A stretch of DNA of 64,000 nt from Bacteroidia bacterium (GCA_020849295.1 JADLGN010000015.1:91168-155167), one strand, 5' to 3'; shown: positions 42,751-55,799, numbered from the stretch's first letter. Made by a program: numbers and translations. Notes: generated by a model not told the origin, from the letters alone.

Positions 42751-43914
42751 ATGAACAACATAGAGGAAATATTGTCATGGTGCGAAAAAACAGCTTTCGA
42801 CCTTAACTTTAATCATGCAAAACAATGGAAAAACAATGACAGTAAAAGGGTAATAGTAGGATATCTGCCAATTTATGTACCTCGTGAAATTATCCACGCT
42901 TCAAATGGTATAGCAGTAGGAATAATGGGCACGGGCGATCGTAAGCAAATTATAAAAGGTGACGCATATTATCAGTCGTATATATGCCATTTGCCAAGAG
43001 GAATCATTGAGTTAGCATTAGATAATAATTTAGAAGGTTTTGATGGTTTTCTATTTCCGGCAATTTGCGATTGTGTAAGAAATCTTTCAGGAATGTTCAA
43101 ATTATCAAAAAAAGGAAAATTTCAAAGATATTTTGATTATGCTCAAAACTTTGACCCATTTATTGGAGGCACTTTTTATAAACACGAAATGGAAAAAGTG
43201 CTGGACGATATATATAATGTAAATGGTATAAAGGCAACAAAAGAAAATTTAAACAATGCAATAAAATTATATAATATAAATCGCAGATTGATAGAAGAAA
43301 TATATGATATCAGACAAAAATATCCTTGGAGATTATCTGCTGTTGATACTTATCACTTACTTCGAGCAGGTATTTGCATTACTGTAGAAGAACACAATGA
43401 AATACTGCATAAAATACTTAATGTAATAAGAAATGAAAGAGGCGAAGCTATGGATAATATAAGGGTAGTAGTTTCTGGTTCATTTTGCGAACAACCGCCT
43501 GTAGGACTGATTAAGTCTATTGAAATGGCGGGTTGTTATATTGTTGATGATGACTTTATGCTTGGATCACGCTGGATACAAGGTGATATTGCCGATAATA
43601 CTGACGACCCACTTGGAGCAATTACTGATGCATATCTAAATCAAAGCACATTTTCATCATGCTATTACGATGTTGGAAATCCAAAAGGAAAAAGACTTGT
43701 AGAACTTGTAAAAAGGAGAGAAGCAGATGGTGTAATATTTTCGGCAGCAAGTTTTTGCGATCCGGCATTGTTAGACAGACCAGAAATGCAGAAAGAATGT
43801 GATGTTGCAGGCGTACCTCATATAAATTTCCAATATCACGAAAACACAGGACAGTTCAAAGTAATAAAAGAACAGGCAGGAACATTTTCTGATTCAATAA
43901 AACTTTGGGCATAA
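42751..43914 (+). CDS. 2-hydroxyacyl-CoA dehydratase / benzoyl-CoA reductase BcrC(gamma)-like iron-sulfur subunit (HGD-D family)
   Basis: The N-terminus RVIVGYLPIYVPREIIHASNG matches the family VGY.C.Y.P.E.I.AAG block. Conserved cysteines are AICDC, SGSFCEQ and ASFCDP. Confidence 0.75.
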   Translation: MNNIEEILSWCEKTAFDLNFNHAKQWKNNDSKRVIVGYLPIYVPREIIHASNGIAVGIMGTGDRKQIIKGDAYYQSYICHLPRGIIELALDNNLEGFDGFLFPAICDCVRNLSGMFKLSKKGKFQRYFDYAQNFDPFIGGTFYKHEMEKVLDDIYNVNGIKATKENLNNAIKLYNINRRLIEEIYDIRQKYPWRLSAVDTYHLLRAGICITVEEHNEILHKILNVIRNERGEAMDNIRVVVSGSFCEQPPVGLIKSIEMAGCYIVDDDFMLGSRWIQGDIADNTDDPLGAITDAYLNQSTFSSCYYDVGNPKGKRLVELVKRREADGVIFSAASFCDPALLDRPEMQKECDVAGVPHINFQYHENTGQFKVIKEQAGTFSDSIKLWA

Positions 43915-43954
43915 AATAAAGTAGTAGAAAAAATTAATTTTTAAAAAAAAAGCT

Positions 43955-45256
43955 ATGGCAAATCCAAAAGATGCAGTAAAAGAAAAGAGCATGATTATTC
44001 AAAAAGAAATGCTCGCAAAGCAATTTAACGACCTAAGTAAAGCAAGAGAAACAGGCAAAAAAGTATGTTATACATTCGTTCCGGGGAATTTAATAGAACT
44101 GATATTATCATTTGATATGCTTCCGGTATATCCTGAAATTAATGCATTACAATCGGGTATGAGAAAAAAATCAGCAGGATATATAAAAGATGCTGAGAAA
44201 ATGGGACATTCAGAAGATGTTTGCACTTATGTAAAATGCGATATTGGAATGATGCTAAACGGCAACATTGGACCTACAGGCGAAAAATTGCCAGACCCCG
44301 ATTTATTGCTTTTAAGTTACACAGGTTGTTTTACTTTTCTAAAATGGTTTGAAAACTTAAACCGTTTATATCCAAATGCTGAAATAGCAATGCTTCACAC
44401 TCCGTATCAAGAAGACGGACAAATTACTCAGGAGCAAATTGAATATATGATAAAGCAGCTAAAAGAAGATGTAATACCAAAATTTGAAAAAGTAACAGGT
44501 AAGAAATTTGATGAAGCAAAATTAAAAAAATTGTTAGATAACTCTGTGCAAGCAGAAGATTACTGGGTAAAAATTCTTCAACTTGCAAAAAATAAACCTT
44601 CGCCTATTGATGCATATTTTGCAGGAGTATATTATATGGGACCTATAAATACAGCCTTTAGAGGAAGTGAAGAGTGTCTTGAATATTACAAAGAACTATA
44701 TAAAGAAGTAAAAGAAAGAGCAGATCAAAAACTACTACCTGTAACACCGGAGGGAGAAATGAAACATGAAAGATTCAGACTAGTAGTAGAAGGACCACCA
44801 AATTGGACAAATTTCCGTGAATTTTGGAAAATATTTTATGATATGGGTGCTGTAATTGTAGCATCTACTTATACCAAGGTTGGTGGAGTTTATGATTTGG
44901 GCTATAGGCAAAATCCTGAGAAACCACTTGAAAGCCTTGCTACATATTGCATGGGATGCTATACAAATTTGAATTTACCGCAAAGGGTAGATTTAATTGA
45001 AAAATATGTAAAAGAATATCAGGCAGACGGATTTTTGATAAACTCAATAAAATCTTGTAATTCATTTTCGGCAGGGCAACTTATGATAATGCGTGAAATT
45101 GAACAAAGAACAGGAGTTCCGGTAGGATTTATTGAAAGCGACCTTGTTGACCCACGATATTTTTCTTATGCAAATATCAAAAACAGGCTCGAATCGTACT
45201 TCCAAATGCTTGAGCAACGTAAAATTATTTTATCACAAGAATCATTAACAGTTTAA
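43955..45256 (+). CDS. 2-hydroxyacyl-CoA dehydratase / BcrB(beta)-like subunit (HgdA-type)
   Basis: The motifs KKVCYTFVPGNLIELI and DVCTYVKCDIG are present. The protein is colinear with the paralogue at 49728..50948 (shared AIVASTY and ..IE[SG]DL.D.R blocks). Confidence 0.75.
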   Translation: MANPKDAVKEKSMIIQKEMLAKQFNDLSKARETGKKVCYTFVPGNLIELILSFDMLPVYPEINALQSGMRKKSAGYIKDAEKMGHSEDVCTYVKCDIGMMLNGNIGPTGEKLPDPDLLLLSYTGCFTFLKWFENLNRLYPNAEIAMLHTPYQEDGQITQEQIEYMIKQLKEDVIPKFEKVTGKKFDEAKLKKLLDNSVQAEDYWVKILQLAKNKPSPIDAYFAGVYYMGPINTAFRGSEECLEYYKELYKEVKERADQKLLPVTPEGEMKHERFRLVVEGPPNWTNFREFWKIFYDMGAVIVASTYTKVGGVYDLGYRQNPEKPLESLATYCMGCYTNLNLPQRVDLIEKYVKEYQADGFLINSIKSCNSFSAGQLMIMREIEQRTGVPVGFIESDLVDPRYFSYANIKNRLESYFQMLEQRKIILSQESLTV

Positions 45257-45261
45257 ATAAA

Positions 45262-46686
45262 ATGAGCAAATATTATCTTGGAGTTGACCTTGGCTCCACA
45301 ACATCAAAGTCAGTAATAATAAATGAACAAGACGAGATAATTGGAAGAGGAATTACAAATACTCGTGCAAATTACTCAGTAGCCGCTGATATAGCAAGGG
45401 ATGAAGCAACCTACAATGCAAGATTTTCAATATTAAAGAAAAATCTGGAAGACGAAATAGCTTCAAAGCCTGAATACAAAAAATATATTTCTGATTTAGA
45501 AAGCGTATTTCAATATGAGCAATTCAAAATAAAATTAGATAAACTTGGGGATGAGTTGGTAAAAACATGTAATAATTTTTTTAAAGATGATACTCAAAGA
45601 AATGAAATTTTAGTACATCTTAGAAATATTCGCAAAGCCTTTAAACCAAAGATTAAACATGATTATTTATATAATAATCTTGGAGAAAAAAATCAATTTT
45701 TCAGAGATATAGTTTCCGAAAAATATAATGAAGAAGTGAACAAACTCGAAATGGCATTATTCGAGCCATTAATGACGGTATGGGACAAAAGTATTTCGCC
45801 GGCAGAAAATGAAAGAATAAAATTTGATTTTAAAGAACTTGTTCATAAAGCAATGGAAGAATTAAAAGACAAATACAAGAATTTACCTGATACTGCAGCC
45901 GAAGGAGAGAGTATAAACTTTGACGCAGAGATGAATTTGCTTAAGGGAAATTTCGATCAGGTATCAGAAACTCTTCGTTCACACATTGACCATATTGCCG
46001 AACTTGAATTTCATATTGAAAACATGACAGGAACAGGCTATGGAAGAGCATTATTGCCATTTCCACAAGAATGTATCCGCTCAGAAATTTTGTGTCATGC
46101 ATTTGGAGCACATGCTGTTTTCCCTGATACAAGAACAGTTTTAGACATTGGAGGTCAGGATACAAAGGCAATTCAGGTAGATAAATACGGGCTTGTTACA
46201 TCATTTCAGATGAATGACCGCTGTGCGGCAGGCTGTGGAAGATATTTGGGATACATTGCAGATGAAATGAGCATTTCATTAAATGAATTAGGACCAATGG
46301 CAATGGAAGCACAAAAAGAAGTTAGTATTTGTTCTACATGTACAGTATTTGCCGGAGCAGAATTAAGAGAACTTACAAATCTTGGCGAAAAAAGAGAAGA
46401 TATTTTGGGAGGTTTACACAAAGCAATTATTATGCGTGCCATGTCGCTTATTGCACGTTCAGGAGGAGTCTTTAATGAATTTACATTTACCGGAGGAGTT
46501 GCAAGAAATCCGGCTGTTATAAAATATCTTACACAGCTTGTAAGAGATAATTACGGAAGCGATATAAAAATAAATATTCATACCGATTCTATATTTATGG
46601 GAGCCTTGGGAGGTGCAATGTTTGCCAGAAGAAATATTAATGTTGATTTGCCAAATGCCAAAAAAACACAAGAAGTAACACAATAA
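45262..46686 (+). CDS. BadF/BadG/BcrA/BcrD-type ATPase, large form (BcrA/alpha-like), with an internal K/E-rich helical insertion of about 200 aa
   Basis: Phosphate-1 is YYLGVDLGSTTSKSVII. Later blocks are TGTGYGR and DIGGQDTKAI. The cluster-ligand region is NDRCAAGCGRYLGY...ICSTCTVFAGAE. Confidence 0.75.
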   Translation: MSKYYLGVDLGSTTSKSVIINEQDEIIGRGITNTRANYSVAADIARDEATYNARFSILKKNLEDEIASKPEYKKYISDLESVFQYEQFKIKLDKLGDELVKTCNNFFKDDTQRNEILVHLRNIRKAFKPKIKHDYLYNNLGEKNQFFRDIVSEKYNEEVNKLEMALFEPLMTVWDKSISPAENERIKFDFKELVHKAMEELKDKYKNLPDTAAEGESINFDAEMNLLKGNFDQVSETLRSHIDHIAELEFHIENMTGTGYGRALLPFPQECIRSEILCHAFGAHAVFPDTRTVLDIGGQDTKAIQVDKYGLVTSFQMNDRCAAGCGRYLGYIADEMSISLNELGPMAMEAQKEVSICSTCTVFAGAELRELTNLGEKREDILGGLHKAIIMRAMSLIARSGGVFNEFTFTGGVARNPAVIKYLTQLVRDNYGSDIKINIHTDSIFMGALGGAMFARRNINVDLPNAKKTQEVTQ

Positions 46687-46701
46687 ATTAAAAAAAAAAT
46701 C

Positions 46702-47538
46702 ATGGAAAATTTTTATACTATGGGTATTGACGTAGGTTCTAATTTTATAAAATTAGTACTTATGGACTATTCAGATAATCCAAAATTATTAGATAAACAT
46801 ACTGAAAAAATAAGGAAACGCGACCCATCACAAGTTGCTGAAGAAATGACTCAAAATATGCTTGCCAAGCATAAATTGAAATATGAGGATATAGCTTATT
46901 TTGCTTCTACCGGAGAAGGAGATCTTGTAAAAAGAAAAAGAGGTCATTTTTATGGAATGACAACACATGCCAAAGGAGCACATTTTTTATATTCTGATGC
47001 AATAACTGTGGTAGATATGGGTGCACTTTATGTAAGAGCAATTAAAATATCTGATGATGCAAGAGTATATGATTATAAAATGACCGGACAATGTGCCTCA
47101 GGTTCGGGGCAGTTTGTTGAAAATATTTCACGATATCTAGGTCTGTCAATTGAAGAAGTTGGCGATGTTTCAATGCAATCAAAAAATCCAGAAGTTTCTT
47201 CAGGAATTTGTGCCGTACTTGCCGAAACTGACGTAATTAATATGGTTTCAAGAGGTATATCAACACCTGATATAATAAAGGGAATTCATATTTCAATTGC
47301 CAACAGAATACTTAAACTATTGAGTTCCCTTAAAGCAGAATCGCCTATAGTAGTTACAGGAGGAATGGCATTAAACAAAGGAATGATAGAAGCACTTGAA
47401 GAACAATTGCAGGAAATGGGAAAATCTTTCCAGATTAAATCTCATCCAGATGCAATATATGCAGGTGCTATAGGAGCAGCACTTTGGGGAGGATACAGAC
47501 ATATTAAGCTAAAAGAAAAGCAAGCAGTTCTTGCATAA
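46702..47538 (+). CDS. BadF/BadG/BcrA/BcrD-type ATPase, small form (BcrD/delta- or HgdC-like activase)
   Basis: Motifs are MGIDVGSNFIKLVLMD, TGQCASGSGQFVE, SSGICAVLAETD and VVTGGMALN. The length is 278 aa. Confidence 0.8.
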   Translation: MENFYTMGIDVGSNFIKLVLMDYSDNPKLLDKHTEKIRKRDPSQVAEEMTQNMLAKHKLKYEDIAYFASTGEGDLVKRKRGHFYGMTTHAKGAHFLYSDAITVVDMGALYVRAIKISDDARVYDYKMTGQCASGSGQFVENISRYLGLSIEEVGDVSMQSKNPEVSSGICAVLAETDVINMVSRGISTPDIIKGIHISIANRILKLLSSLKAESPIVVTGGMALNKGMIEALEEQLQEMGKSFQIKSHPDAIYAGAIGAALWGGYRHIKLKEKQAVLA

Positions 47539-47599
47539 GCAATTGTTTTTATTTCATAATTAAAACAAAATTTATGAAATAATAATTTTTGATAGGATA

Positions 47600-49723
47600 A
47601 TGAGCGTACAAAATCAAACAATGAGTATTGAAACAAAAAAACATGAGTTGGATACTCTTTTTAAACCTAAATCAATAGCAATAATTGGAGCATCATCCAA
47701 AGAGCTTTCAATAGGAAATGTTATTATTAAAAATCTTGTTCATTTTAATTATACAGGGAAAATTTACCCAATAAACCCAAAAGAACCTGAAATAAGAGGA
47801 ATAAAAGCATATTCTACAATCTTTGAAGTCCCTGATGATATTGACCTAGCACACGTAATAATACCAAGCAAATTTGTGCCACAGATAATTGAGGATTGTG
47901 GAAAAAAGGGAATAAAATCAGTAATTATCAATTCTGCCGGTTTTAGCGAAATGGGTGATGAAGGTATGGCTTTACAAGAAGCATTTCTACAAAATGCAAA
48001 AAAATACGGAGTTAGAATTTTCGGACCAAATTGTCAGGGAATAATTAATTGCGACCCTGAGTATAATGCATATTGCGATTTTACATTTACATTTCCTAAT
48101 CCGGGCAGCATATCAATTGTAGCACTAAGCGGTGGTGTTGGTGCATTTATAATGCAAAGCCTTTTCGACCTTAATATAGGGATGAGAATGTATGCTTCTA
48201 ATGGTAATGCTTGCGATATTTCTATTTCTGAAGTTATAAAATACTACGGACAAGATGATGGAACTAAAGCAATTATTTTATATACCGAAGGTTTTCATAA
48301 ACCATTAGAATTTTTAAATACTGCAAAACTTGTTGCAAGAAAAAAACCAATTCTTGCAATGAAATCAGGAAGGACAGAAGCAGGAGCAAAAGCAGCAGCT
48401 TCACATACAGGAGCACTTGCAGGTATTGATATTTCTACTGAGTTAATATTTGAAAAAACAGGTGTGTTGTCATTCACAAATGAAGAAGAAATGTGTCAGG
48501 CAGCAATGGCTTTCTCTACACAACCAATTCCAAAGGGCAATAAAGTAGGTATAATTACAAATACAGGCGGACCTGCAGTAATTGCAACAGACGAACTAGT
48601 TAATTCAGGACTTGAGATTCCAGCTATATCAGCAAAAGCAGAAGAAATATTAAAAAATACATTGTTGCCTGAAGCCACAATAGGCAATCCGATTGATGTA
48701 GTTGCTACCGGCGGTGGAGTACATTTTAGAAGTGCACTTGATGTGCTGATGAATGAAAGTCAAATAGACAGTATTTTTATAAATTTTGTAACAGCACCAT
48801 TTACAGATACTGATGAGGTAGCAAGAAATATAGTAGAAGTAAATCAACTTAAGAAGAAACCAATAATTTGTAATTTTATGACAAATATGAGTTTTGAAAG
48901 ATTTCAAAAAACTGCCAAAATACTTCAGGATGGCGGTGTGCCATGTTATAGTTTTCCTACTACTGCAGCTAAAGCTCTTGGAGCATTATACAAATTTCAT
49001 AAAATTCAAAATAGAGAAATTGGCTTCCCTCAGCTTTTTAGGGATATAGACAAAAATACAGTTAAAGAAATTATTGAAAATTCAGCTATTAATGAATTTA
49101 TGTCTTCCGAGAAAGTTTTTAGTATTCTTAAAGCATACAATATTCCTATAGCAGACTGGGGAATAGCATCAAATATAGATACTGCCCATGAAATAGCATC
49201 AAAAATTTCATACCCAGTAGTAGTAAAAGCAGAGGCATCAGATATAATACACAAAAGCGATAAAGGAGGTGTGGCAGTAAATATTAAAAACCAAGCAGAA
49301 TTGATATCGACTATTGAAAATATGAAGAACAATTTTGATAATTCTGCTTTGAAATTTCTTATACAAAAATTTGAACCGGGAGGAAAAGAATTAATAATTG
49401 GAGTTACATCAAATGGAGATTTAGGGCATTTAATAATGTTTGGAATGGGAGGCATTTATGTAGAAATATTAAAAGATGTTGTTTTCAAATTAAGCCCCGT
49501 AACGCAAGTTGAAGCCGAAGAAATGCTATCAACAATTAAATCGTCAAAATTATTAGATGGAGTAAGAGGTCAACAAGGAATTGATAAAAAAAGAGTTATT
49601 GAAATAATTGAAAGGATATCTCAATTGGTAACAGATTTTCCTCAAATAAAAGAAATGGATTTAAATCCTGTAATGGCATTTTCAGATAGAGCTATTGCAG
49701 TTGATGCAAGAATTAAATTATAA
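47600..49723 (+). CDS. ADP-forming (NDP-forming) acyl-CoA synthetase with fused alpha and beta domains (CoA-binding + succinyl-CoA-synthetase-like + ATP-grasp)
   Basis: The N-terminal CoA-binding Rossmann region is SIAIIGASSKELSIGN. The CoA-ligase/flavodoxin-like middle contains a phosphohistidine loop (GAKAAASHTGALAG). The C-terminal ATP-grasp has YPVVVKAEASDIIHKSDKGGV. The length is 707 aa. Confidence 0.8.
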   Translation: MSVQNQTMSIETKKHELDTLFKPKSIAIIGASSKELSIGNVIIKNLVHFNYTGKIYPINPKEPEIRGIKAYSTIFEVPDDIDLAHVIIPSKFVPQIIEDCGKKGIKSVIINSAGFSEMGDEGMALQEAFLQNAKKYGVRIFGPNCQGIINCDPEYNAYCDFTFTFPNPGSISIVALSGGVGAFIMQSLFDLNIGMRMYASNGNACDISISEVIKYYGQDDGTKAIILYTEGFHKPLEFLNTAKLVARKKPILAMKSGRTEAGAKAAASHTGALAGIDISTELIFEKTGVLSFTNEEEMCQAAMAFSTQPIPKGNKVGIITNTGGPAVIATDELVNSGLEIPAISAKAEEILKNTLLPEATIGNPIDVVATGGGVHFRSALDVLMNESQIDSIFINFVTAPFTDTDEVARNIVEVNQLKKKPIICNFMTNMSFERFQKTAKILQDGGVPCYSFPTTAAKALGALYKFHKIQNREIGFPQLFRDIDKNTVKEIIENSAINEFMSSEKVFSILKAYNIPIADWGIASNIDTAHEIASKISYPVVVKAEASDIIHKSDKGGVAVNIKNQAELISTIENMKNNFDNSALKFLIQKFEPGGKELIIGVTSNGDLGHLIMFGMGGIYVEILKDVVFKLSPVTQVEAEEMLSTIKSSKLLDGVRGQQGIDKKRVIEIIERISQLVTDFPQIKEMDLNPVMAFSDRAIAVDARIKL

Positions 49724-49727
49724 AGAA

Positions 49728-50948
49728 ATGTATAAAATACAAAGTACAAAGGTGATGAAGGAAATAATGGGAAATTATTTCCTAGGTATGAAAGATAAAT
49801 CAAAAAAAATAGCATGGTGTACAAGCGTAGGACCAGCCGAACTTTTGCGTTCGTTTGGTTTTGAAGTACATTTTCCTGAAAATCATGGAGCATTGCTTGG
49901 TGCTACACGTACAGCAGGAGATTTAATACCCGAATCAGCAAAATTCGGTTATTCAAATGATATATGTTCTTATCTTACAGCCGATATAGGTTCATATCTG
50001 AAAAGTGAAACGCCACTTAAAGAACATTATGGTCTTGAAGGACCGCCCAAGCCCGATTTGATTGTTTATAACACAAACCAATGTAGAGAAGTACAGGATT
50101 GGTTTACATATTTTGGAAGAGAACTTAATGTGCCTGTTATCGGAATTTATCCACCAAGACATCTTGATGAAGTTACGGATGAAATAATAGAAGATGTTGC
50201 TACACAATTCAGAAAAATGATTCCGATATGCGAAGAAGTAAGCGGACAAAAATTTGATAATGATAAATTCAAAGCAACATTAAAACTAAGCAAAGAAGCA
50301 ACTGACTTATGGAAAAAAGTTCTTTATACTGCTACAAATACTCCGGCACCAATAAGCTTTTTTGATGCAACTATCCACATGGGACCTATAGTAGTTTTAC
50401 GCGGTACACAGCAAGCAAAAGACTATTATATTACATTGCTTAAAGAAATGGAAGAAAATGTAGAGAAAGGAATAGGATTTCTTGAAAAAGAAAAATGCCG
50501 ATTGTATTGGGATGGAATGCCAATTTGGGGCAAGTTGCGTTCATTATCTGACTTATTTGTTCAAAACAATACAGCAATAGTAGCTTCAACATATTGCAAT
50601 AGCTGGGTTTTTGATGCATTTGACGAAGAAAACCCATTTGAATCATCAGCTAAAGCATATACTGAAATTTTTATTAATAGAAGCGAAGAAGCTAAACAAA
50701 GACTTTTAACCGAGTTAATAGAAAAATTTAGGATAGATGGTGTGATTTTTCACGATGCTAAAACATGTGCAAACAATTCTAACTCAAGATTTGGAATGCC
50801 GCAAAGACTTACAGAATCAATAGGAATACCAACATTAATAATAGAAGGCGACCTATGTGATTTGAGATTTTATTCAGAAGGGCAAAGTATTACCAAAATT
50901 GAAACTTTTATTGAGCAAATTGAGAGTACAAAAATTTTAAGTAATTAA
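49728..50948 (+). CDS. Second BcrB/HgdA-type subunit, paralogous to 43955..45256. The ORF-track start at 49695 overlaps the upstream stop by 29 bp, so the ATG at 49728 (or 49755) is more likely the true start.
   Basis: KKIAWCTSVGPAELLRSFG and DICSYLTADIG align position-for-position with the 43955 protein. The blocks AIVASTY and TLIIEGDLCDLR are conserved. Confidence 0.7.
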   Translation: MYKIQSTKVMKEIMGNYFLGMKDKSKKIAWCTSVGPAELLRSFGFEVHFPENHGALLGATRTAGDLIPESAKFGYSNDICSYLTADIGSYLKSETPLKEHYGLEGPPKPDLIVYNTNQCREVQDWFTYFGRELNVPVIGIYPPRHLDEVTDEIIEDVATQFRKMIPICEEVSGQKFDNDKFKATLKLSKEATDLWKKVLYTATNTPAPISFFDATIHMGPIVVLRGTQQAKDYYITLLKEMEENVEKGIGFLEKEKCRLYWDGMPIWGKLRSLSDLFVQNNTAIVASTYCNSWVFDAFDEENPFESSAKAYTEIFINRSEEAKQRLLTELIEKFRIDGVIFHDAKTCANNSNSRFGMPQRLTESIGIPTLIIEGDLCDLRFYSEGQSITKIETFIEQIESTKILSN

Positions 50949-50960
50949 TATAATAAAGGT

Positions 50961-51416
50961 ATGGATACTGAAAACAAAAGTAAAGTTTATAAACTCACAG
51001 ACGGAAGTGAGGTAGATTCAAATCAAGTTGAAAAACTAATTCAGGACACATGCCATTACGTAAAATATGTTGTTATTAACCAAAATGATAAAAACGAAAA
51101 TGTAGCTTTTATTTTTCCCGATAAAAACCTTTACAACAATCCCGATTATCTTTTGGCACCTAATGACAATGAAGGTTGTTTTTGCCCACGAAACCTTGAT
51201 GAGCTTGGAAGATGTCTTACAGGGTGTATGAAAAAGGTTAATTTGAGTTTTGAAAATATTGAAGATAAATTTTCAAATGCAGTGATTTTATCAGGAGAAA
51301 ACGAAATAGAAAACGAAGTAGAAAAGTATAAGAATATTTTAAAAAATTCATTGGGGAATGAAATTTCAGATGATGAAGTATATTATATCAAAAACTTAAA
51401 GGAAAAAAAGAAGTAA
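50961..51416 (+). CDS. Hypothetical small cysteine-containing protein (C-x-C...C...C in EGCFCPRNLDELGRCLTGC)
   Basis: The 151-aa ORF is tightly packed between cluster genes (12 bp and 6 bp gaps). It has no signal peptide, and no family is recognised. Confidence 0.4.
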   Translation: MDTENKSKVYKLTDGSEVDSNQVEKLIQDTCHYVKYVVINQNDKNENVAFIFPDKNLYNNPDYLLAPNDNEGCFCPRNLDELGRCLTGCMKKVNLSFENIEDKFSNAVILSGENEIENEVEKYKNILKNSLGNEISDDEVYYIKNLKEKKK

Positions 51417-51422
51417 AAATTA

Positions 51423-53273
51423 ATGAAAAAATCATCAAAATTAAAAGTTGGTATTGTAGGAATAGGTCCGGTTGGGATGATAATGGCTGTAAAACTAAAT
51501 GAGGCAGGTTGTGAAGTGGCACTTTGCGATAAAGATGAATTTAAAGTAAAAAAAGTAAGAGAAAACGGAATAGTACTTGAAAATATTTATAATTCAACTA
51601 CAAAGTTTGAACATATTTACAATTCTGTAACAGAGATGAGAAAACTTGATTTGGATTATCTTGTTTTTGCATTAAAATCATATCAAACACTTGGAGCAGC
51701 AAAAGAAGCAGAAATTCTCAATTCTGAAAAACTTACAGTAATTGCAGCTCAAAACGGTATAGATACAGAACAAATACTTGCATCAGTTTTCGGTGAAAAT
51801 AAAACACTGAGAATGGTTATAAATTATGCAGGAAATCTTACATCGCCCAATACAGTTAAAGTAACTTTTTTTACCCCACCCAACTATATAGGTTCTATAG
51901 ACGACAGCATAACCGAACAATCAAAAATATTTACATCATTACTTAATGAAGTAAATTTTGAAACAGTTAATCTCAATTCGTTTGAAATACTAAAACGTAC
52001 TTGGGAGAAAACTATTTTGAATGCATCGTTAAGTCCACTGTGTGGGGTAGGAAGACTAACTATGGCAGAAGCAATGTCTGACCCTGAAACAGTTGAACTA
52101 GTTGAGCAAATTATAAATGAGGGAATAGAAGTAGCAGAAAGAGAAAAAATACGTTTCTCAGACGATTTTTATCGAAAATGCCTGCAATATTTAAAAAAAG
52201 GTGGAGAGCATTTCCCATCATTAGCAATAGATTTAATTAATAACCGCCAGACAGAAATTGATTATTTCAACGGAAAAATTGTAGAATATGGGAAAAAACA
52301 TTATGTAAAAACCTCATTGAATTTAGCATTTACAAACATGGTAAAAGCTATGACTAATAAAAACGTAATGAACAGGTCAATTGCTTCAGATGCAGTTTTA
52401 AACAAGAAAATAGTAAGTAAAGGTTTAATAGAAAAAAATAATTCCTCATTATATTATAAAGAGCAAAATTGTTTTCTGGGGATTGACCTTGGCTCAGCAT
52501 ATACCAAGTTTACAGTTATAAATGCAAAAGGGAAACCCGTATTCAGGTACTTTGTTCACACAATGAACAAAGACAGAAATGCTATGAAAAATGTAATTCA
52601 GGCTATATATTCAACATTTAATATTAAATACAGTTGCGCTACAGGTTATGGCAGAAAACACTTTACTGATACAGATATTATTAAAACCGAAATAAACTGT
52701 GCAGCTGCAGGAGTTGCAGAATATCACGATGGTGAAAAAAACATAATAGATATCGGTGGCGAAGATATAAAGGTTATACATTGTAATAATGATAATCAGG
52801 TTGCAAATTTTTACATGAATGATAAGTGTGCTGCCGGTACAGGTGCATTTTTACAGGAAATATCAGAAAGAGCAGAAATTAAAATTGAAGATATGAGCAG
52901 CCTTGCTTCACATTCTGATTTCGACAAAGAATTAAACAGCTTTTGTACTGTTTTTGCAAAAACTGAAATTATGAATTGGGTTTTTGACGGAATGCCAATG
53001 CAAGATATTGCAAGAGGTATTTATATATCAATAGCCAATAAAGTAGCAAAAATGAGATTAATACCGGGTTTGCCAATTATTATGATTGGTGGTGTAATTG
53101 CGCATCATCCTTATATGAGTACAATACTAAGCCAGAAATTTAATAAGGATATTAAAACCATTGAACACCCTCAGTTTGTTGTGTCACTTGGTGCTGCTAT
53201 AATTGCAAAACAAACATGGGCAAACGCAAATGAAAAAATTGATTTAAATAAAGAGATTAAACTACCAGCATAA
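51423..53273 (+). CDS. Fusion protein: an N-terminal ketopantoate-reductase-like (ApbA/PanE family) NAD(P)-binding 2-oxoacid reductase domain joined to a C-terminal BadF/BcrA/HgdC-type ATPase (activase) domain
   Basis: N-terminus: KVGIVGIGPVGMIMAVKLNEAGCEVALCD (Rossmann GxGxxG). The ApbA-like middle and C-terminal helical domain carry SLAIDLINNRQTEIDYFNG (ApbA E/N substrate block). C-terminal half from about aa 345: CFLGIDLGSAYTKFTVI, DIGGEDIKVI, DKCAAGTGAFLQEISE, NSFCTVFAKTEI. Confidence 0.7.
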   Translation: MKKSSKLKVGIVGIGPVGMIMAVKLNEAGCEVALCDKDEFKVKKVRENGIVLENIYNSTTKFEHIYNSVTEMRKLDLDYLVFALKSYQTLGAAKEAEILNSEKLTVIAAQNGIDTEQILASVFGENKTLRMVINYAGNLTSPNTVKVTFFTPPNYIGSIDDSITEQSKIFTSLLNEVNFETVNLNSFEILKRTWEKTILNASLSPLCGVGRLTMAEAMSDPETVELVEQIINEGIEVAEREKIRFSDDFYRKCLQYLKKGGEHFPSLAIDLINNRQTEIDYFNGKIVEYGKKHYVKTSLNLAFTNMVKAMTNKNVMNRSIASDAVLNKKIVSKGLIEKNNSSLYYKEQNCFLGIDLGSAYTKFTVINAKGKPVFRYFVHTMNKDRNAMKNVIQAIYSTFNIKYSCATGYGRKHFTDTDIIKTEINCAAAGVAEYHDGEKNIIDIGGEDIKVIHCNNDNQVANFYMNDKCAAGTGAFLQEISERAEIKIEDMSSLASHSDFDKELNSFCTVFAKTEIMNWVFDGMPMQDIARGIYISIANKVAKMRLIPGLPIIMIGGVIAHHPYMSTILSQKFNKDIKTIEHPQFVVSLGAAIIAKQTWANANEKIDLNKEIKLPA

Positions 53274-53280
53274 AAATATA

Positions 53281-54543
53281 ATGAGAGCATTTCACGACAA
53301 AGAAAAAGGTATAGGTATAATATTCGATGATATTTATTTTGTTAACGGAGCAAGAACTCCGTTTGGAAAATATTGCGGAACACTTGCAAATGTATCGCCT
53401 ACAGATTTAGGAATTTTTGCCAGTAAAGCAGCAATTAATAAAAGTAATATTTCAGCAGATAAAATTGACCAGGCAGTTATGGCAAATATTGGTCAGTCTT
53501 CAGGCGATGCATATTTTTTCCCTCGTCATGTTTCATTATTTGCAGGATTGCCGGTTACTGTACCTGCACTTATGGTTCAAAGAATATGTGCATCCGGATT
53601 TGAAACTATAATTACTTCTGCCGAGCAGATTACACTTGGCAAAGCCGATTCAACACTATGCTGCGGTGCAGAAAGTATGTCACTTTCACCAACCGTAAGT
53701 TTTGGCAACAGAATGGGTTATATGCTTGGTCGCCCTGTTTTTAAAGATATGCTTTGGGAAGCTTTAGACGATACCGCAGCAGGTTATCCAATGGGTTTTA
53801 CAGCAGAAAATATTGCAGTAAAGCACAATATTAGCAGGCAACAGTGTGACGAATATGCTCTAATATCTTTTAACAGAGCTATTGCAGCAAGAAACAAAGG
53901 ATTTTTTAATGAAGAAATTACACCTATCAATTCTACGGTATTTGAAGCAGATGGTTTAAAATCACGAAAAGTTAAACTAACTGGAGGAGTAAAAGATTTT
54001 AATATTGACGAACAAATAAGAGAAACCACATTAGAATCATTGTCAAAATTGCCAAATGTATTTAAAGAAGTAGGAGTACTGTCAGCTGGTAATTGCAGTG
54101 GCATTGTTGATGGAGCAGCAGCAGCAGTTGTAGCATCTGATAGTTTTGTAAAATCAAATAATTTAAAACCCCTTGCAAAAGTGGTAGCCGCTGCAACAAG
54201 TGCAATAGACCCTAAAGTAATGGGGCTGGGTCCGGTACCTGCTATTAAATATTTATTGGAAATTACAGGTTTAAAAATTGATGATATCGGATTGTTTGAG
54301 ATTAATGAAGCATTTTCATCACAGGTAATAGGCTGCGAAATAGAATTAGGACTTGATAGGAATAAACTTAATGTAAATGGTGGTGCAATTGCTATCGGAC
54401 ATCCGCTTGCAGCAAGCGGCTTAAGACTTTCGCTAACACTTATTAGAGAAATGAATCAAAAAAATATAAAATACGGAATTGCTTCTGCTTGTATAGGTGG
54501 CGGACAAGGTACAGCAATTCTTTTTGAAAATTTAAATAATTAA
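53281..54543 (+). CDS. Acetyl-CoA C-acyltransferase (thiolase)
   Basis: NGARTPFGKY with the active-site Cys in RICASGFETI, the motifs NEAFSSQV and GHPLAASG, and the C-terminal CIGGGQGTA are present. Confidence 0.9.
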   Translation: MRAFHDKEKGIGIIFDDIYFVNGARTPFGKYCGTLANVSPTDLGIFASKAAINKSNISADKIDQAVMANIGQSSGDAYFFPRHVSLFAGLPVTVPALMVQRICASGFETIITSAEQITLGKADSTLCCGAESMSLSPTVSFGNRMGYMLGRPVFKDMLWEALDDTAAGYPMGFTAENIAVKHNISRQQCDEYALISFNRAIAARNKGFFNEEITPINSTVFEADGLKSRKVKLTGGVKDFNIDEQIRETTLESLSKLPNVFKEVGVLSAGNCSGIVDGAAAAVVASDSFVKSNNLKPLAKVVAAATSAIDPKVMGLGPVPAIKYLLEITGLKIDDIGLFEINEAFSSQVIGCEIELGLDRNKLNVNGGAIAIGHPLAASGLRLSLTLIREMNQKNIKYGIASACIGGGQGTAILFENLNN

Positions 54544-54547
54544 AAAA

Positions 54548-54727
54548 ATGGAAATCACAGATAAAATTTTAAATCAATTTGCAAAATCTGGCAAAGCACT
54601 AAAAGGTGGCGAAATAGCCGATCTTACAGGTATTGATAAAAAACTAGTAGATAAAACCTTAAAGAAATTGATGAGTGAAGATAAAATATATTCGCCTGTA
54701 AGGTGCTATTACGATTTAAAAAAATAA
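54548..54727 (+). CDS. Unannotated 59-aa ORF (below the 60-aa cutoff of the ORF track) with winged-helix/HTH-like sequence: MEITDKILNQFAKSGKALKGGEIADLTGIDKKLVDKTLKKLMSEDKIYSPVRCYYDLKK
   Basis: Its ATG lies 4 bp after the thiolase stop, and its stop lies 3 bp before the next ATG, which is operon-tight packing. An HTH-like segment (GEIADLTGIDKKLVDKTLKKL) is followed by a beta-hairpin-like tail. Confidence 0.45.
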   Translation: MEITDKILNQFAKSGKALKGGEIADLTGIDKKLVDKTLKKLMSEDKIYSPVRCYYDLKK

Positions 54728-54730
54728 TAA

Positions 54731-55789: not shown

Positions 55790-55799
55790 TAAAAAAAAT

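What the first reader, a model, noticed from the sequence alone, without database searches (positions are those of the whole stretch)
43955..50948. Two colinear paralogues of the beta-type (HgdA/BcrB-like) subunit: three HGD-D-family proteins and three ATPases in one cluster
The 433-aa protein (43955) and the 417-aa protein (49728) align along their full length. Shared blocks include KK[VI].[YW].....P..L......[FM], D[VI]C[TS]Y...DIG, AIVASTY and G[VI]P...IE[SG]DL.D.R. They are therefore duplicates, whereas the 387-aa protein (42751) is a different HGD-D type. The cluster also has three activase-type ATPase domains (45262, 46702 and the C-terminal half of 51423). The stoichiometry fits neither a simple 2+1 dehydratase nor a simple 2+2 BCR. 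One reading is a four-subunit reductase plus an alternative beta subunit with a dedicated fused activase, for example to switch substrate. Another is two distinct radical enzymes, a reductase and a dehydratase, acting consecutively.
Basis: seen in the sequence. Interest (0 to 1): 0.8.

Follow-up and report, generated by a model that had tools for sequence, protein, structure and literature searches.

The report
Lone radical dehydratase in benzoyl-CoA operon
A Bacteroidota operon for anaerobic breakdown of aromatic rings holds a complete four-subunit benzoyl-CoA reductase and also a separate, undescribed one-subunit radical enzyme of the 2-hydroxyacyl-CoA dehydratase type, whose ATP-driven activator is fused to a 2-oxoacid reductase; the same module sits beside all three known kinds of benzoyl-CoA reductase in many uncultured bacteria.

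Summary
The 433-aa protein (43955-45256) and the 406-aa protein (ATG 49728-50948) align end to end (29% identity, E 5e-54). The window has exactly three HGD-D genes and three activase domains. They are ancient paralogues, not recent duplicates, and neither is decaying.

The first four genes are a Thauera-type class I benzoyl-CoA reductase, BcrCBAD. The third HGD-D protein ("HADa") is closest to the catalytic alpha subunit of 2-hydroxyisocaproyl-CoA dehydratase (TM 0.87-0.89). It keeps the three cluster cysteines and the glutamate, and no beta partner is encoded in any locus examined.

HADa belongs to a separate module: CoA ligase, HADa, and a PanE-type 2-oxoacid reductase fused to a HadI-like activase. 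In 80 species genomes, 54 of 57 informative loci place this module directly after bcrCBAD. Other lineages place it beside Bzd-type or class II tungsten reductases, or apart from any reductase. In a Myxococcota genome PanE is fused to HADa itself. The "alternative BCR subunit" reading therefore fails, and "two distinct radical enzymes" is supported.

The mechanism is inferred: 2-oxoacid, then (R)-2-hydroxyacid, then CoA ester, then enoyl-CoA. The substrate is unproven. My leading guess (about 0.35) is aryl-lactyl-CoA feeding benzoyl-CoA. I found no published description.

The parts
42751..43914 (+). BcrC: gamma-type HGD-D subunit of class I benzoyl-CoA reductase
   Evidence: PF06050. TIGR02263 scores 452.8 bits against a cut-off of 421.
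43955..45256 (+). BcrB: catalytic HGD-D subunit of the reductase, and the first of the two paralogues
   Evidence: TIGR02260 scores 674.5 bits against a cut-off of 486.6. Cluster ligand Cys90, Cys125 and Cys368 are invariant in 48 orthologues.
45262..46686 (+). BcrA: long ATPase subunit of the reductase
   Evidence: PF01869 across residues 6-455. TIGR02259 is the best match at 438.5 bits, below its cut-off of 578.
46702..47538 (+). BcrD: short ATPase subunit of the reductase
   Evidence: TIGR02261 scores 320.6 bits against a cut-off of 312.9.
47600..49723 (+). ADP-forming acyl-CoA synthetase (ACD, 707 aa): the CoA ligase of the second module
   Evidence: CoA_binding, Succ_CoA_lig and ATP-grasp_5 domains. 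A ligase lies directly upstream of HADa in 67 of 69 informative loci: ACD in 31 and a 580-aa AMP-forming ligase in 36. A ligase also accompanies distant HADa relatives in loci with no reductase.
49728..50948 (+). HADa: lone alpha-type HGD-D protein (406 aa), the second paralogue and the inferred catalytic subunit of a single-subunit 2-hydroxyacyl-CoA dehydratase-type enzyme
   Evidence: PF06050. HadB model 224.9 bits against BcrB model 156.8, both below their cut-offs. PDB best sequence match is HadB, 5.8e-51. AF2 model matches HadB alpha with TM 0.87-0.89. Cys80, Cys119, Cys347 and Glu51 are conserved.
50961..51416 (+). 151-aa ORF: stand-alone copy of the Cys-rich C-terminal domain of the AMP-forming ligase found in sister clusters
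   Evidence: 40% identity, E 1e-33, to residues 418-573 of the 580-aa ligase of L003. Intact in 30 loci, all of them ACD-type, with five Cys and one His at least 90% conserved. No Pfam or NCBIfam hit.
51423..52412 (+). PanE/ApbA-type NAD(P)H 2-oxoacid reductase domain (N-terminal half of the 616-aa fusion)
   Evidence: ApbA plus ApbA_C. TIGR00745 scores 161.6 bits against a cut-off of 141. Closest solved relatives are Enterococcus enzymes 2ew2 and 3wfi (67-83 bits); E. coli ketopantoate reductase scores only 30 bits. The alignment to 2ew2 keeps Asn (QNG), Lys (WEK), Ser and Glu (TEID); that these are the catalytic residues is from my own knowledge of E. coli ketopantoate reductase.
52443..53273 (+). 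Activase (archerase) domain, the third ATPase (C-terminal half of the fusion)
   Evidence: PF01869 across residues 352-595. TIGR00241 scores 171 bits against a cut-off of 125. Best PDB matches are HadI 4eht (134 bits) and HgdC 1hux (122 bits). Both Cys motifs, DKCAAGTG and FCTVFA, are present; their role as ligands of the bridging cluster is from my knowledge of HgdC.
53281..54543 (+). Thiolase
   Evidence: Thiolase_N and Thiolase_C. TIGR01930 scores 397 bits.
54731..55789 (+). Had: 6-hydroxycyclohex-1-ene-1-carbonyl-CoA dehydrogenase
   Evidence: TIGR03201 scores 461.2 bits against a cut-off of 338.7.
55800..56882 (+). Oah: 6-oxocyclohex-1-ene-1-carbonyl-CoA hydrolase
   Evidence: TIGR03200 scores 588.7 bits against a cut-off of 464.5.
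56882..57655 (+). Dch-like enoyl-CoA hydratase (cyclohexa-1,5-diene-1-carbonyl-CoA hydratase)
   Evidence: TIGR03189 is the best hit at 221.4 bits, below its cut-off of 292.5.

Best explanation
The cluster is one tightly packed 12-gene operon (42751-57655) that encodes two separate ATP-primed iron-sulfur radical systems.

(1) BcrCBAD is a complete Thauera-type class I benzoyl-CoA reductase. Had, Oah and Dch carry out the ring opening that follows it.

(2) A self-contained module consists of a CoA ligase (here ADP-forming), the lone alpha-type HGD-D protein HADa, and a fusion of a PanE-type 2-oxoacid reductase with a HadI/HgdC-like activase.

What is shown. HADa is an intact alpha-type protein under strong conservation, with three Cys for an open-site [4Fe-4S] cluster plus the conserved Glu. 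It has no beta partner in any of the roughly 100 loci seen. It travels with ligase, PanE and activase whichever reductase is nearby.

What is inferred. HADa works as a homodimer, as the double-cubane proteins of this superfamily do. The activase dimer injects one low-potential electron at the cost of ATP. The module then runs the classical route: 2-oxoacid to (R)-2-hydroxyacid (PanE), then to 2-hydroxyacyl-CoA (a ligase in place of the usual CoA-transferase), then to enoyl-CoA (ketyl-radical dehydration). The product stays a CoA ester and goes on to beta-oxidation by a FadB-like enzyme and the thiolase.

What is a guess, at about 0.35. The substrate is an aryl-lactyl-CoA (phenyllactyl- or 4-hydroxyphenyllactyl-CoA) made from arylpyruvates. 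Cinnamoyl-CoA would then be shortened to benzoyl-CoA plus acetyl-CoA and handed to the reductase.
For: Reductase identity: equivalog scores.

HADa is alpha-type and closest to a dehydratase. HadB outscores BcrB (224.9 against 156.8 bits). PDB sequence matches are HadB 5.8e-51, MbdO 1.7e-34, BzdO 2.8e-22 and DCCP 6e-7. Fold matches are HadB alpha TM 0.87-0.89, MbdO 0.84, BzdO 0.80-0.82, DCCP 0.72-0.74 and the beta/gamma subunits 0.66-0.72. The three Cys aligned with BzdO ligands C95, C128 and C380, and the aligned Glu, are conserved in nearly all of 54 compared sequences.

Not decaying. The best 120 hits are all at least 68% identical. At least 543 stretches in species-representative genomes encode a relative. 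160 of 406 positions are invariant across 15 diverse orthologues.

Lone subunit. No other HGD-D gene is in the window. None is in the Bacteroidota loci apart from the reductase's own pair, BcrC/BcrB or BzdN/BzdO. None is in L145, L148, L150 or L151.

Module cohesion. 67 of 69 loci have a ligase upstream, 65 of 68 have PanE and 64 of 68 have an activase downstream. PanE is fused to the activase here and split elsewhere. In a Myxococcota MAG it is fused to the HGD-D protein itself (P0122, 53% identical, all ligands kept).

Independence from BcrC and BcrAD. The module lies behind bamBCDEFGHI in L096. It lies in the operon divergent from bamB-H in L151/L152, where HADa is 52% identical. It lies behind bzdNOPQ in L071 and L087.

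Direction. An AMP-forming ligase fills the ligase slot in 36 loci. The PanE domain resembles the Enterococcus enzymes 2ew2 and 3wfi. From my own knowledge, 3wfi is a D-mandelate / D-2-hydroxyacid dehydrogenase that prefers bulky 2-oxoacids. The activase is closest to dehydratase activators.

Aryl guess. The module's ligase is the only ligase in the operon. A FadB-like gene and a thiolase flank the module. A HisC / aromatic-aminotransferase-like gene sits between two PanE genes in L087. A 4-hydroxybenzoyl-CoA-reductase-like molybdenum enzyme directly follows the fusion and activase in L145 (TIGR03194 733 bits, the best model). That enzyme or its maturation genes also flank at least 25 Bacteroidota loci.
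Against: There is no biochemical evidence, and every relative comes from an uncultured genome.

HADa is about equally distant (28-30% identity) from HadB, BcrB and MbdO. Sequence alone therefore cannot exclude a reductase or dehydroxylase chemistry.

All characterised 2-hydroxyacyl-CoA dehydratases are alpha-beta heterodimers that use a CoA-transferase. Homodimer formation is assumed, not tested. A beta partner encoded elsewhere in the genome cannot be ruled out.

Fusing a reductase to the activase or to HADa joins enzymes of non-consecutive steps, unless PanE acts on a CoA ester.

Against the aryl substrate. In variant clusters the module is followed by caprolactamase/oxoprolinase-like, TrpB-like, RidA, acyl-CoA dehydrogenase and B12-mutase genes. 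Those fit C3-C5 aliphatic acids at least as well, yet HADa there is 66-80% identical to the window's. The window itself lacks the FadB-like gene. L071 and L087 lack a third activase.
Confidence: 0.6

Rival explanations
1. HADa is an alternative catalytic subunit of the class I reductase. It would pair with BcrC and be energised by BcrAD or by the fused activase, to switch substrate.
For: It lies in the same operon as bcrCBAD in 54 of 57 informative loci. It is a full-length homologue of BcrB. L071 and L087 have HADa but no third activase, next to BzdNOPQ.
Against: Orthologues with their own activase lie beside class II tungsten reductase genes, with no BcrC or BcrAD gene in the about 21-22 kb of sequence held for those loci (L096; L151/L152). 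Close relatives lie in loci with no reductase at all (L145, L148, L150). HADa scores and folds closer to HadB than to BcrB, MbdO or BzdO. Its activase is HadI/HgdC-like.
Confidence: 0.05
2. The module handles a C5 dicarboxylate. HADa would be a (R)-2-hydroxyglutaryl-CoA dehydratase or glutaconyl-CoA hydratase. It would link 2-oxoglutarate or glutamate to glutaconyl-/glutaryl-CoA, the intermediate of the lower benzoyl-CoA pathway. If it ran in reverse it could even deliver 2-oxoglutarate to a 2-oxoacid:ferredoxin oxidoreductase that re-reduces the reductase's ferredoxin.
For: From established knowledge of the pathway, glutaryl- and glutaconyl-CoA are common to all benzoyl-CoA routes, whichever reductase is used. 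That would explain linkage to all three reductase types. The variant clusters carry an acyl-CoA dehydrogenase that scores 277 bits on the non-decarboxylating glutaryl-CoA dehydrogenase model, oxoprolinase-family genes and an acyl-CoA mutase. 2-Oxoacid:ferredoxin oxidoreductase genes flank several loci. ADP-forming synthetases are reversible.
Against: An AMP-forming ligase in 36 loci and an NAD(P)H-dependent PanE-type reductase both argue against the reverse direction. In the forward direction it is not obvious why glutamate catabolism should sit inside a benzoyl-CoA operon. This reading does not explain the 4-hydroxybenzoyl-CoA-reductase-like partner in L145. The same dehydrogenase scores slightly higher (304 bits) on the acryloyl-CoA reductase model.
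Confidence: 0.17
3. The module is a short-chain acrylate-type pathway: pyruvate or 2-oxobutyrate, then D-lactate or 2-hydroxybutyrate, then the CoA ester, then acryloyl- or crotonyl-CoA. It would serve as an electron sink or a side route that is merely co-located with aromatic catabolism.
For: One NCBI record names an orthologue 'lactoyl-CoA dehydratase subunit alpha'. The variant clusters have TrpB-like PLP enzyme plus RidA genes, which are makers of 2-oxoacids. They also have an acyl-CoA dehydrogenase best matched by acryloyl-CoA reductase AcrC (304 bits) and a methylmalonyl-type mutase.
Against: This gives no reason for such persistent linkage to three different reductase systems. The PanE domain is closest to the Enterococcus enzymes 2ew2 and 3wfi; from my own knowledge, 3wfi prefers bulky 2-oxoacids. 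The NCBI name is an automatic annotation.
Confidence: 0.1
4. HADa is not a dehydratase at all. It would be a homodimeric ATP-driven reductase or dehydroxylase, DCCP-like or BCR-like, acting on a benzoyl-CoA-pathway compound or cooperating with the 4-hydroxybenzoyl-CoA-reductase-like molybdenum enzyme.
For: It is as similar to BcrB and MbdO as to HadB (28-30% identity). The only known one-gene, homodimeric members of the superfamily with their own ATPase are the double-cubane reductases. Extra Cys31 and Cys290 are conserved in the near clade and sit at strand ends facing the inter-domain cleft. Cys290 aligns with a DCCP cluster ligand. The operon partner in L145 is a molybdenum enzyme.
Against: The DCCP seven-Cys motif is absent, and only the three universal ligands persist outside the near clade. 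The double_cubane model scores 63 bits against a cut-off of 350. Fold and sequence are nearest to HadB. The activase is nearest to dehydratase activators. A hydride-transferring PanE domain fits the hydroxyacid route.
Confidence: 0.08

Closest known systems
(R)-2-hydroxyisocaproyl-CoA dehydratase HadBC with activator HadI and the ldhA/hadA genes (Clostridioides difficile; PDB 3o3m, 4eht)
   Same: HADa is closest to HadB in both sequence and fold (E 5.8e-51; TM 0.87-0.89). It has the same three-Cys open-site cluster motif and the same Glu. The activase domain is closest to HadI. The operon logic matches: 2-oxoacid reductase, CoA activation, dehydratase and activator.
   Different: No HadC-type beta subunit is encoded. 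CoA activation is by an ADP- or AMP-forming ligase, not a CoA-transferase. The reductase is PanE-type and is fused to the activase (or, elsewhere, to HADa). The module is embedded in benzoyl-CoA operons of Bacteroidota rather than in Clostridial amino-acid fermentation loci. Identity to HadB is only 27-28%, and the HadB equivalog model scores 225 bits against a cut-off of 750.
Phenyllactate dehydratase FldABC with initiator FldI (Clostridium sporogenes)
   Same: It has the chemistry I propose as the most likely: phenyllactyl-CoA to cinnamoyl-CoA by a ketyl-radical HGD-D enzyme primed by an ATP-dependent activator. This rests on established knowledge, cited in PMC13416013.
   Different: Fld is a heterotrimer that includes a CoA-transferase, and it releases cinnamate for reduction (the reductive Stickland branch). 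Here the product would stay a CoA ester and be oxidised to benzoyl-CoA. No Fld sequence was compared directly.
Class I benzoyl-CoA reductases (BcrCBAD of Thauera; BzdNOPQ, PDB 8s02; MbdONPQ, PDB 9g87)
   Same: The same superfamily and the same ATP-driven electron injection. HADa aligns end to end with BcrB and with the catalytic subunits MbdO and BzdO, and it shares their three cluster ligands.
   Different: There is no gamma subunit carrying the [8Fe-9S] cluster and no heterodimeric ATPase pair. BcrB and BzdO equivalog models score far below their cut-offs (157 against 487 bits; 84 against 449 bits). HADa occurs without any class I reductase genes.
Double-cubane cluster proteins with their reductases (DCCP/DCCP-R of Carboxydothermus, PDB 6eno and 7yyl; YjiM/YjiL of E. 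coli)
   Same: They are the only known precedent in this superfamily for a single HGD-D-type gene (a homodimer) working with its own dedicated ATPase.
   Different: HADa lacks the seven-Cys motif. The NF040772 model scores 63 bits against a cut-off of 350. TM is only 0.72-0.74. HADa belongs to the catalytic alpha / BcrB branch that binds CoA esters.

Membership tests
2-hydroxyacyl-CoA dehydratases (HgdAB/HadBC/FldBC/LcdAB type) | Catalytic subunit with the HGD-D fold of the alpha type | tested here: met
   PF06050 scores 214 bits. The best PDB sequence and fold match is HadB alpha.
2-hydroxyacyl-CoA dehydratases (HgdAB/HadBC/FldBC/LcdAB type) | [4Fe-4S] cluster held by three Cys with a free iron site, plus the conserved active-site Glu | tested here: met
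   Cys80, Cys119 and Cys347 align with the BzdO ligands C95, C128 and C380, and with the HadB Cys. Glu51 lies in the shared PE motif. All are invariant in 79 orthologues. The cofactor itself cannot be tested here.
2-hydroxyacyl-CoA dehydratases (HgdAB/HadBC/FldBC/LcdAB type) | Heterodimer of homologous alpha and beta subunits encoded side by side | tested here: not met
   No second HGD-D gene beside HADa in the window, nor within the sequence held for the 88 loci clustered or for L145, L147, L148, L150 and L151, most of which reach up to 10 kb on each side. The only other HGD-D genes are the reductase's own pair. Whole genomes could not be searched.
2-hydroxyacyl-CoA dehydratases (HgdAB/HadBC/FldBC/LcdAB type) | Dedicated ATP-dependent activator with two Cys for a bridging [4Fe-4S] cluster | tested here: met
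   Residues 352-595 of the 616-aa protein score 171 bits on TIGR00241 against a cut-off of 125. The best PDB matches are HadI and HgdC, and both Cys motifs are present.
2-hydroxyacyl-CoA dehydratases (HgdAB/HadBC/FldBC/LcdAB type) | Companion (R)-2-hydroxyacid dehydrogenase and CoA-transferase in the locus | tested here: inconclusive
   A PanE-type 2-oxoacid reductase is present and is fused to the activase. There is no CoA-transferase; a CoA ligase takes its place.
2-hydroxyacyl-CoA dehydratases (HgdAB/HadBC/FldBC/LcdAB type) | Reversible dehydration of a 2-hydroxyacyl-CoA with only catalytic need for ATP and reductant | not testable with these tools
   This needs an anaerobic enzyme assay.
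Class I benzoyl-CoA reductase, catalytic subunit (BcrB/BadE/BzdO) | Passes the curated equivalog model | tested here: not met
   HADa scores 156.8 bits on TIGR02260 (cut-off 486.6) and 84 bits on TIGR03191 (cut-off 448.6). The neighbouring 433-aa protein scores 674.5 bits.
Class I benzoyl-CoA reductase, catalytic subunit (BcrB/BadE/BzdO) | Always accompanied by a gamma-type partner (BcrC/BzdN) and two ATPase subunits | tested here: not met
   HADa orthologues occur next to class II bam genes, or next to no reductase genes, with one activase and no BcrC-type gene.
Class I benzoyl-CoA reductase (the BcrCBAD set at 42751-47538) | Four subunits C, B, A and D in one operon, with pathway genes had, oah and dch | tested here: met
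   TIGR02263, TIGR02260 and TIGR02261 are above their cut-offs. TIGR02259 is the best hit for BcrA but below its cut-off. TIGR03201 and TIGR03200 are above their cut-offs. TIGR03189 is the best hit for Dch but below its cut-off.
Double-cubane cluster proteins (DCCP/YjiM) | Seven-Cys motif CX19CX18-19CX29CX166-170CX32-34CX32C that binds [8Fe-9S] | tested here: not met
   The spacing of the HADa Cys (31, 80, 119, 168, 290, 347, 377) does not fit. Only three Cys persist in relatives below about 43% identity. NF040772 scores 63 bits against a cut-off of 350.
Double-cubane cluster proteins (DCCP/YjiM) | Single HGD-D-type gene (homodimer) plus its own ATPase | tested here: inconclusive
   The gene arrangement matches (one HGD-D gene plus one activase). 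The oligomeric state cannot be tested here.

The most novel reading that the evidence does not exclude
The lone HADa enzyme, with its PanE-fused activase and its ligase, is the missing 'alpha-eliminating' step of an undescribed anaerobic route. Aryl-C3 acids from phenylalanine or tyrosine (arylpyruvate, then aryl-lactate, then aryl-lactyl-CoA, then cinnamoyl- or coumaroyl-CoA) would be beta-oxidised to benzoyl- or 4-hydroxybenzoyl-CoA and passed to whichever benzoyl-CoA reductase the organism has. HADa would also be the first homodimeric, beta-less member of the 2-hydroxyacyl-CoA dehydratase branch.
Probability: 0.3. Interest if true: 0.78.

Novelty: new variant of a known kind. Interest (0 to 1): 0.62.

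Why it matters
[quoted passage not shown] Every characterised dehydratase of this kind is an alpha-beta heterodimer from amino-acid-fermenting Firmicutes or Fusobacteria.

This finding defines a conserved one-subunit form. Its activator is fused to a hydride-transfer reductase, and it uses a ligase instead of a CoA-transferase. At least 543 stretches in the collection of species-representative genomes encode a relative, almost all from uncultured Bacteroidota of lakes, groundwater, sludge and ocean. The module is genetically tied to all three known types of benzoyl-CoA reductase.

If the dehydratase reading is right, it shows that the beta subunit is dispensable. It also points to an unrecognised feeder or side branch of the central anaerobic aromatic pathway in a phylum not usually counted among anaerobic aromatic degraders. 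The enzyme is small, and expression of two or three genes should make it directly testable.

It also warns annotators that 'three HGD-D genes plus three ATPases' is not an unusual reductase stoichiometry but two separate enzymes.

Tried and rejected
(1) The 151-aa ORF as a hidden small or beta subunit. Rejected: it is the C-terminal domain of an AMP-forming ligase and is absent from AMP-ligase-type clusters as a separate gene.

(2) A decaying duplicate. Rejected on conservation and intact ligands.

(3) A double-cubane site formed by the four extra invariant Cys of HADa. Cys168 and Cys377 are confined to the Bacteroidota clade, Cys31 and Cys290 to relatives of at least 43% identity, and the spacing does not fit the DCCP motif. 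I kept this only as an unexplained detail.

(4) Profile alignment of HADa to BcrC, meant to map the distal-cluster ligand positions. It was too weak to use (10% probability).

(5) The ligase as the operon's benzoate-CoA ligase. Judged unlikely because ligases of both kinds accompany HADa relatives where no reductase is present. It is not excluded.

(6) Sigma-70 promoter and terminator scans. Not above shuffled controls and not suited to Bacteroidota. Rfam found nothing in the window.

(7) Literature searches for a prior description. Six searches found none. One of them was wasted on an ambiguous term. A 2026 paper on a benzene degrader only hypothesises a phenyllactyl-CoA dehydratase step with a 'yet unassigned dehydratase'.

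I worked around it with a homologue search.

(9) Whole-genome checks for a distant beta gene, and multimer structure prediction, were not possible with these tools.

Full report
**What is in the window.** The window comes from a low-GC (about 31%) member of the Bacteroidota. It has SusC/RagA and T9SS sorting-domain genes. Twelve genes on the + strand run from 42751 to 57655. The gaps between them are 61 nt or less, apart from one of 187 nt, and one pair overlaps by a single base. Pfam and NCBIfam give the following order.
- BcrC (387 aa), TIGR02263 452.8 bits, above its cut-off.
- BcrB (433 aa), TIGR02260 674.5 bits, above.
- BcrA (474 aa), TIGR02259 438.5 bits, the best hit but below its cut-off.
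- BcrD (278 aa), TIGR02261 320.6 bits, above.
- An ADP-forming acyl-CoA synthetase (707 aa).
- A third HGD-D protein, here called HADa.
- A 151-aa ORF.
- A 616-aa fusion of a PanE/ApbA reductase with an acyl-CoA-dehydratase activase.
- A thiolase.
- Had, TIGR03201, above its cut-off.
- Oah, TIGR03200, above its cut-off.
- A Dch-like hydratase, TIGR03189, the best hit but below its cut-off.

**Checking the observation.** BcrB and HADa align over their whole length with 29% identity, E 5e-54. The profile-profile alignment gives 100% probability over 395 columns. BcrC matches either one over only about 70 residues. The true start of HADa is the ATG at 49728, giving 406 aa. '417 aa' is the ORF from an upstream TTG. 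A tblastn of all these proteins against the window finds exactly three HGD-D genes and three activase domains.

**Neither paralogue is decaying.** HADa keeps Cys80, Cys119 and Cys347. These align with the [4Fe-4S] ligands Cys95, Cys128 and Cys380 of BzdO and with the HadB cysteines. It also keeps Glu51 in the shared P-E motif. BcrB keeps the equivalent Cys90, Cys125 and Cys368. The 120 best database hits to HADa are at least 68% identical, and the records that carry an organism name are almost all Bacteroidota MAGs. At least 543 stretches in the species-representative genome collection encode a relative. 160 of 406 positions are invariant among 15 spread orthologues.

**What HADa resembles.** It scores higher on the HadB model (224.9 bits) than on the BcrB model (156.8) or the BzdO model (84). 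All three scores are far below their cut-offs. Against solved structures the sequence order is HadB (5.8e-51), MbdO (1.7e-34), BzdO (2.8e-22) and DCCP (6e-7). An AlphaFold2 model (pLDDT 79, pTM 0.83) gives the same order by fold.

| Structure | TM score |
|---|---|
| HadB alpha | 0.87-0.89 |
| MbdO | 0.84 |
| BzdO | 0.80-0.82 |
| DCCP | 0.72-0.74 |
| Beta/gamma subunits HadC, MbdN, BzdN | 0.66-0.72 |

HADa is therefore an alpha-type, CoA-ester-binding catalytic subunit. It is marginally nearer to the dehydratases, but at 28-30% identity it is about equally far from HadB, BcrB and MbdO.

**The rest of the module.**
- The activase half of the 616-aa protein is closest to the homodimeric dehydratase activators HadI (134 bits) and HgdC (122 bits). 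It has both Cys motifs of that family, DKCAAGTG and FCTVFA.
- The PanE half passes TIGR00745. It is much closer to the Enterococcus enzymes 2ew2 and 3wfi (67-83 bits) than to E. coli ketopantoate reductase (30 bits). From my own knowledge, 3wfi is D-mandelate dehydrogenase, a D-2-hydroxyacid dehydrogenase for bulky 2-oxoacids. The alignment to 2ew2 keeps Asn, Lys, Ser and Glu; that these are the catalytic residues is from my knowledge of E. coli ketopantoate reductase.
- The 151-aa ORF is not a hidden subunit. It is homologous (40% identity, E 1e-33) to the last 160 residues of a 580-aa AMP-forming ligase found in sister clusters.

**Comparative genomics.** I fetched 80 species-representative loci around HADa orthologues that are 66-91% identical. 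I mapped the window's proteins onto them and clustered all their ORFs.
- BcrCBAD genes lie upstream on the same strand in 54 of the 57 loci with at least 8 kb of upstream sequence.
- A CoA ligase lies directly upstream of HADa in 67 of 69 loci. It is the ADP-forming type in 31 and the AMP-forming type in 36.
- PanE lies downstream in 65 of 68 loci and the activase in 64 of 68. The two are usually fused and sometimes split.
- After the module come either Thl-Had-Oah-Dch and a FadB-like gene, as in the window, or a FadB-like gene followed by caprolactamase/oxoprolinase-like, TrpB-like, RidA, acyl-CoA-dehydrogenase and B12-mutase genes.
- Frequent flanking genes are an SDR, XdhC and MocA-like maturation genes, a 4-hydroxybenzoyl-CoA-reductase-like molybdenum enzyme, 2-oxoacid:ferredoxin oxidoreductases and a hemerythrin-like gene.
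- In none of these loci is there a beta/gamma-type HGD-D gene other than the reductase's own BcrC or BzdN.

**The decisive contexts.** Two of the three loci without upstream BcrCBAD (L071 and L087) instead carry BzdN, BzdO and BzdQ, all above their equivalog cut-offs, followed by ACD and HADa.

In L096, a 1.5-Mb contig, HADa is 76% identical to the window's. The order there is thiolase, BamB (tungsten AOR family), BamC, BamD (CCG), BamE (double HdrA), BamF (MvhD), BamG, BamH, BamI, ACD, HADa, PanE, activase. This is a class II, ATP-independent reductase cluster, and no Bcr-type gene lies in the 20.8 kb held.

In L151 and L152 the genes bamB to bamH lie on one strand, and an operon divergent from bamB runs the other way. 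Its order is ACD, PanE, Had, Oah, Dch, HADa (52% identical, E 2e-165), activase, thiolase, FadB-like, molybdenum enzyme.

More distant relatives were reached through the representative search, which found 1757 representatives at E<1e-3. These relatives keep the module without any reductase gene within reach of the contigs. L148 has HGD-D, activase and ACD. L150 has PanE, an acyl-CoA dehydrogenase, HGD-D, activase and an AMP-forming ligase. In a Myxococcota MAG, PanE is fused directly to the HGD-D protein (P0122, 728 aa, 53% identical, all ligands kept). That fusion is followed by an activase and a three-subunit molybdenum enzyme whose best model is 4-hydroxybenzoyl-CoA reductase alpha (733 bits, below its cut-off).

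**What follows from this.** HADa works where there is no BcrC or BcrAD, and it brings its own activase. The second reading, two distinct radical enzymes, is right in outline. The stoichiometry is 2+2 (the reductase) plus 1+1 (HADa and activase), with a ligase and a PanE reductase belonging to the second system.

Because no beta gene accompanies HADa anywhere, I infer a homodimer. The only precedent in the superfamily is the double-cubane protein DCCP with its ATPase. HADa is not a DCCP, however. The seven-Cys motif is absent, and the NF040772 model scores 63 bits against a cut-off of 350.

**Mechanism (inferred).** The module has all four functions of the classical (R)-2-hydroxyacid route: a 2-oxoacid reductase, CoA activation, a dehydratase and an activator. 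Two features favour the direction from acid to CoA ester to enoyl-CoA. One is the AMP-forming ligase that fills the ligase slot in 36 loci. The other is the NAD(P)H-dependent PanE-type reductase. A ligase instead of a CoA-transferase makes sense if the enoyl-CoA is not released but is oxidised further, and a FadB-like gene and a thiolase are always nearby.

The substrate is not established. I rank aryl-lactyl-CoA first, at about 0.35, for these reasons.
- The module's ligase is the only ligase in the operon.
- The product, cinnamoyl-CoA, would yield benzoyl-CoA after one beta-oxidation round. That would explain linkage to any type of reductase.
- A HisC / aromatic-aminotransferase-like gene lies between two PanE genes in L087.
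- A 4-hydroxybenzoyl-CoA-reductase-like enzyme is a recurrent partner.

A C5 dicarboxylate role (2-hydroxyglutaryl-CoA / glutaconyl-CoA, joining the lower pathway) comes next at about 0.17. A short-chain acrylate-type role follows at about 0.1. Both fit the variant clusters better. A non-dehydratase reductase chemistry remains possible at about 0.08.

**Comparison with what is known, and novelty.** Six literature searches found no description of this module. The structural papers on BzdNO (PMC11971306) and on DCCP (PMC7317905) define the reference features I used. A 2026 paper on a benzene degrader (PMC13416013) hypothesises a route from phenylpyruvate through phenyllactyl-CoA and cinnamoyl-CoA to benzoyl-CoA, with a 'yet unassigned dehydratase'. 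This shows that the step is an open question.

I classify the finding as a new variant of a known kind: a beta-less, ligase-coupled, PanE-fused form of the 2-hydroxyacyl-CoA dehydratase system. It is not a member of the HadBC family in the strict sense, because the heterodimer criterion was tested and not met. The evidence is genomic only.

**Unexplained details.** HADa has four more conserved Cys. Cys31 and Cys290 are conserved down to about 43% identity, while Cys168 and Cys377 are confined to the Bacteroidota clade. Cys31, Cys290 and Cys377 sit just after beta strands. The only low-confidence loops of the model are those carrying Cys290, Cys347 and Cys377. Separately, the Cys-rich ligase C-terminal domain survives as its own ORF wherever the ADP-forming synthetase has replaced the AMP-forming ligase.

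Noticed in passing
window 50961-51416 (+): The 151-aa ORF is a stand-alone copy of the Cys-rich C-terminal domain of the 580-aa AMP-forming ligase. It is intact in 30 loci, all of them clusters where an ADP-forming synthetase has replaced that ligase. C31, H32, Y33, the GCFCPR motif (C73, C75), C85 and C89 are at least 90% conserved. This suggests a metal-binding domain with a function of its own. It has no Pfam or NCBIfam hit.
   Followed up: partly
L104:395-5200 (metagenome contig Ga0172368_10001678): Class I bcrC and bcrB genes lie divergently next to class II bamB on one contig, so both reductase classes may sit side by side in one genome.
   Followed up: no
P0128 (603 aa) and P0141 (768 aa; L146:4477-6783): These are PanE::HGD-D fusion proteins whose HGD-D part has lost all three cluster cysteines (Ser/Gly/Ser or Thr). 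They may be a cluster-less, non-catalytic derivative of the lone subunit.
   Followed up: partly
window 43955-45256 (BcrB): The Bacteroidota BcrB orthologues carry two more invariant Cys (C95, C332) and a third, C335, kept in 92% of them, besides the three expected cluster ligands. Their role is unknown.
   Followed up: no
window 49728-50948 (HADa residues 31, 168, 290, 377): Four extra conserved Cys. In the AF2 model the only segments with pLDDT below 50 are 289-294, 345-350 and 376-383. Those are the loops carrying C290, C347 and C377, each directly after a beta strand. C290 aligns with a cluster ligand of DCCP.
   Followed up: partly
L003-L005, L050, L056, L065, L074 and others: In about 10 loci a saccharopine-dehydrogenase-like gene is inserted between bcrA and bcrD, and a T9SS-tail protein between bcrD and the ligase. 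A hemerythrin-like gene lies beside bcrC (usually just upstream) in 22 loci.
   Followed up: no
L087:11234-14271 and L071: Next to Bzd-type reductase genes, HADa is followed by PanE, a HisC-like aminotransferase (TIGR01141 304 bits; third-best PDB match is a putative phenylalanine aminotransferase, 4r2n) and a second PanE. No third activase lies within reach.
   Followed up: partly
L145:10001-18157 (Myxococcota MAG BAAHET010000005.1): A compact operon: PanE::HGD-D fusion, activase, a 4-hydroxybenzoyl-CoA-reductase-like molybdenum enzyme (gamma, beta, alpha), XdhC and a MocA-like gene. There is no ligase or reductase nearby. The beta subunit is 291 aa, and only its first ~120 residues match the 321-position 4-HBCR beta model, so it probably lacks the extra [4Fe-4S] loop that I recall from 4-HBCR.
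   Followed up: partly
window 1-64000: No Rfam family reaches its gathering score anywhere in the window. Sigma-70-type promoter and intrinsic-terminator scans across the operon are not above shuffled controls.
   Followed up: yes
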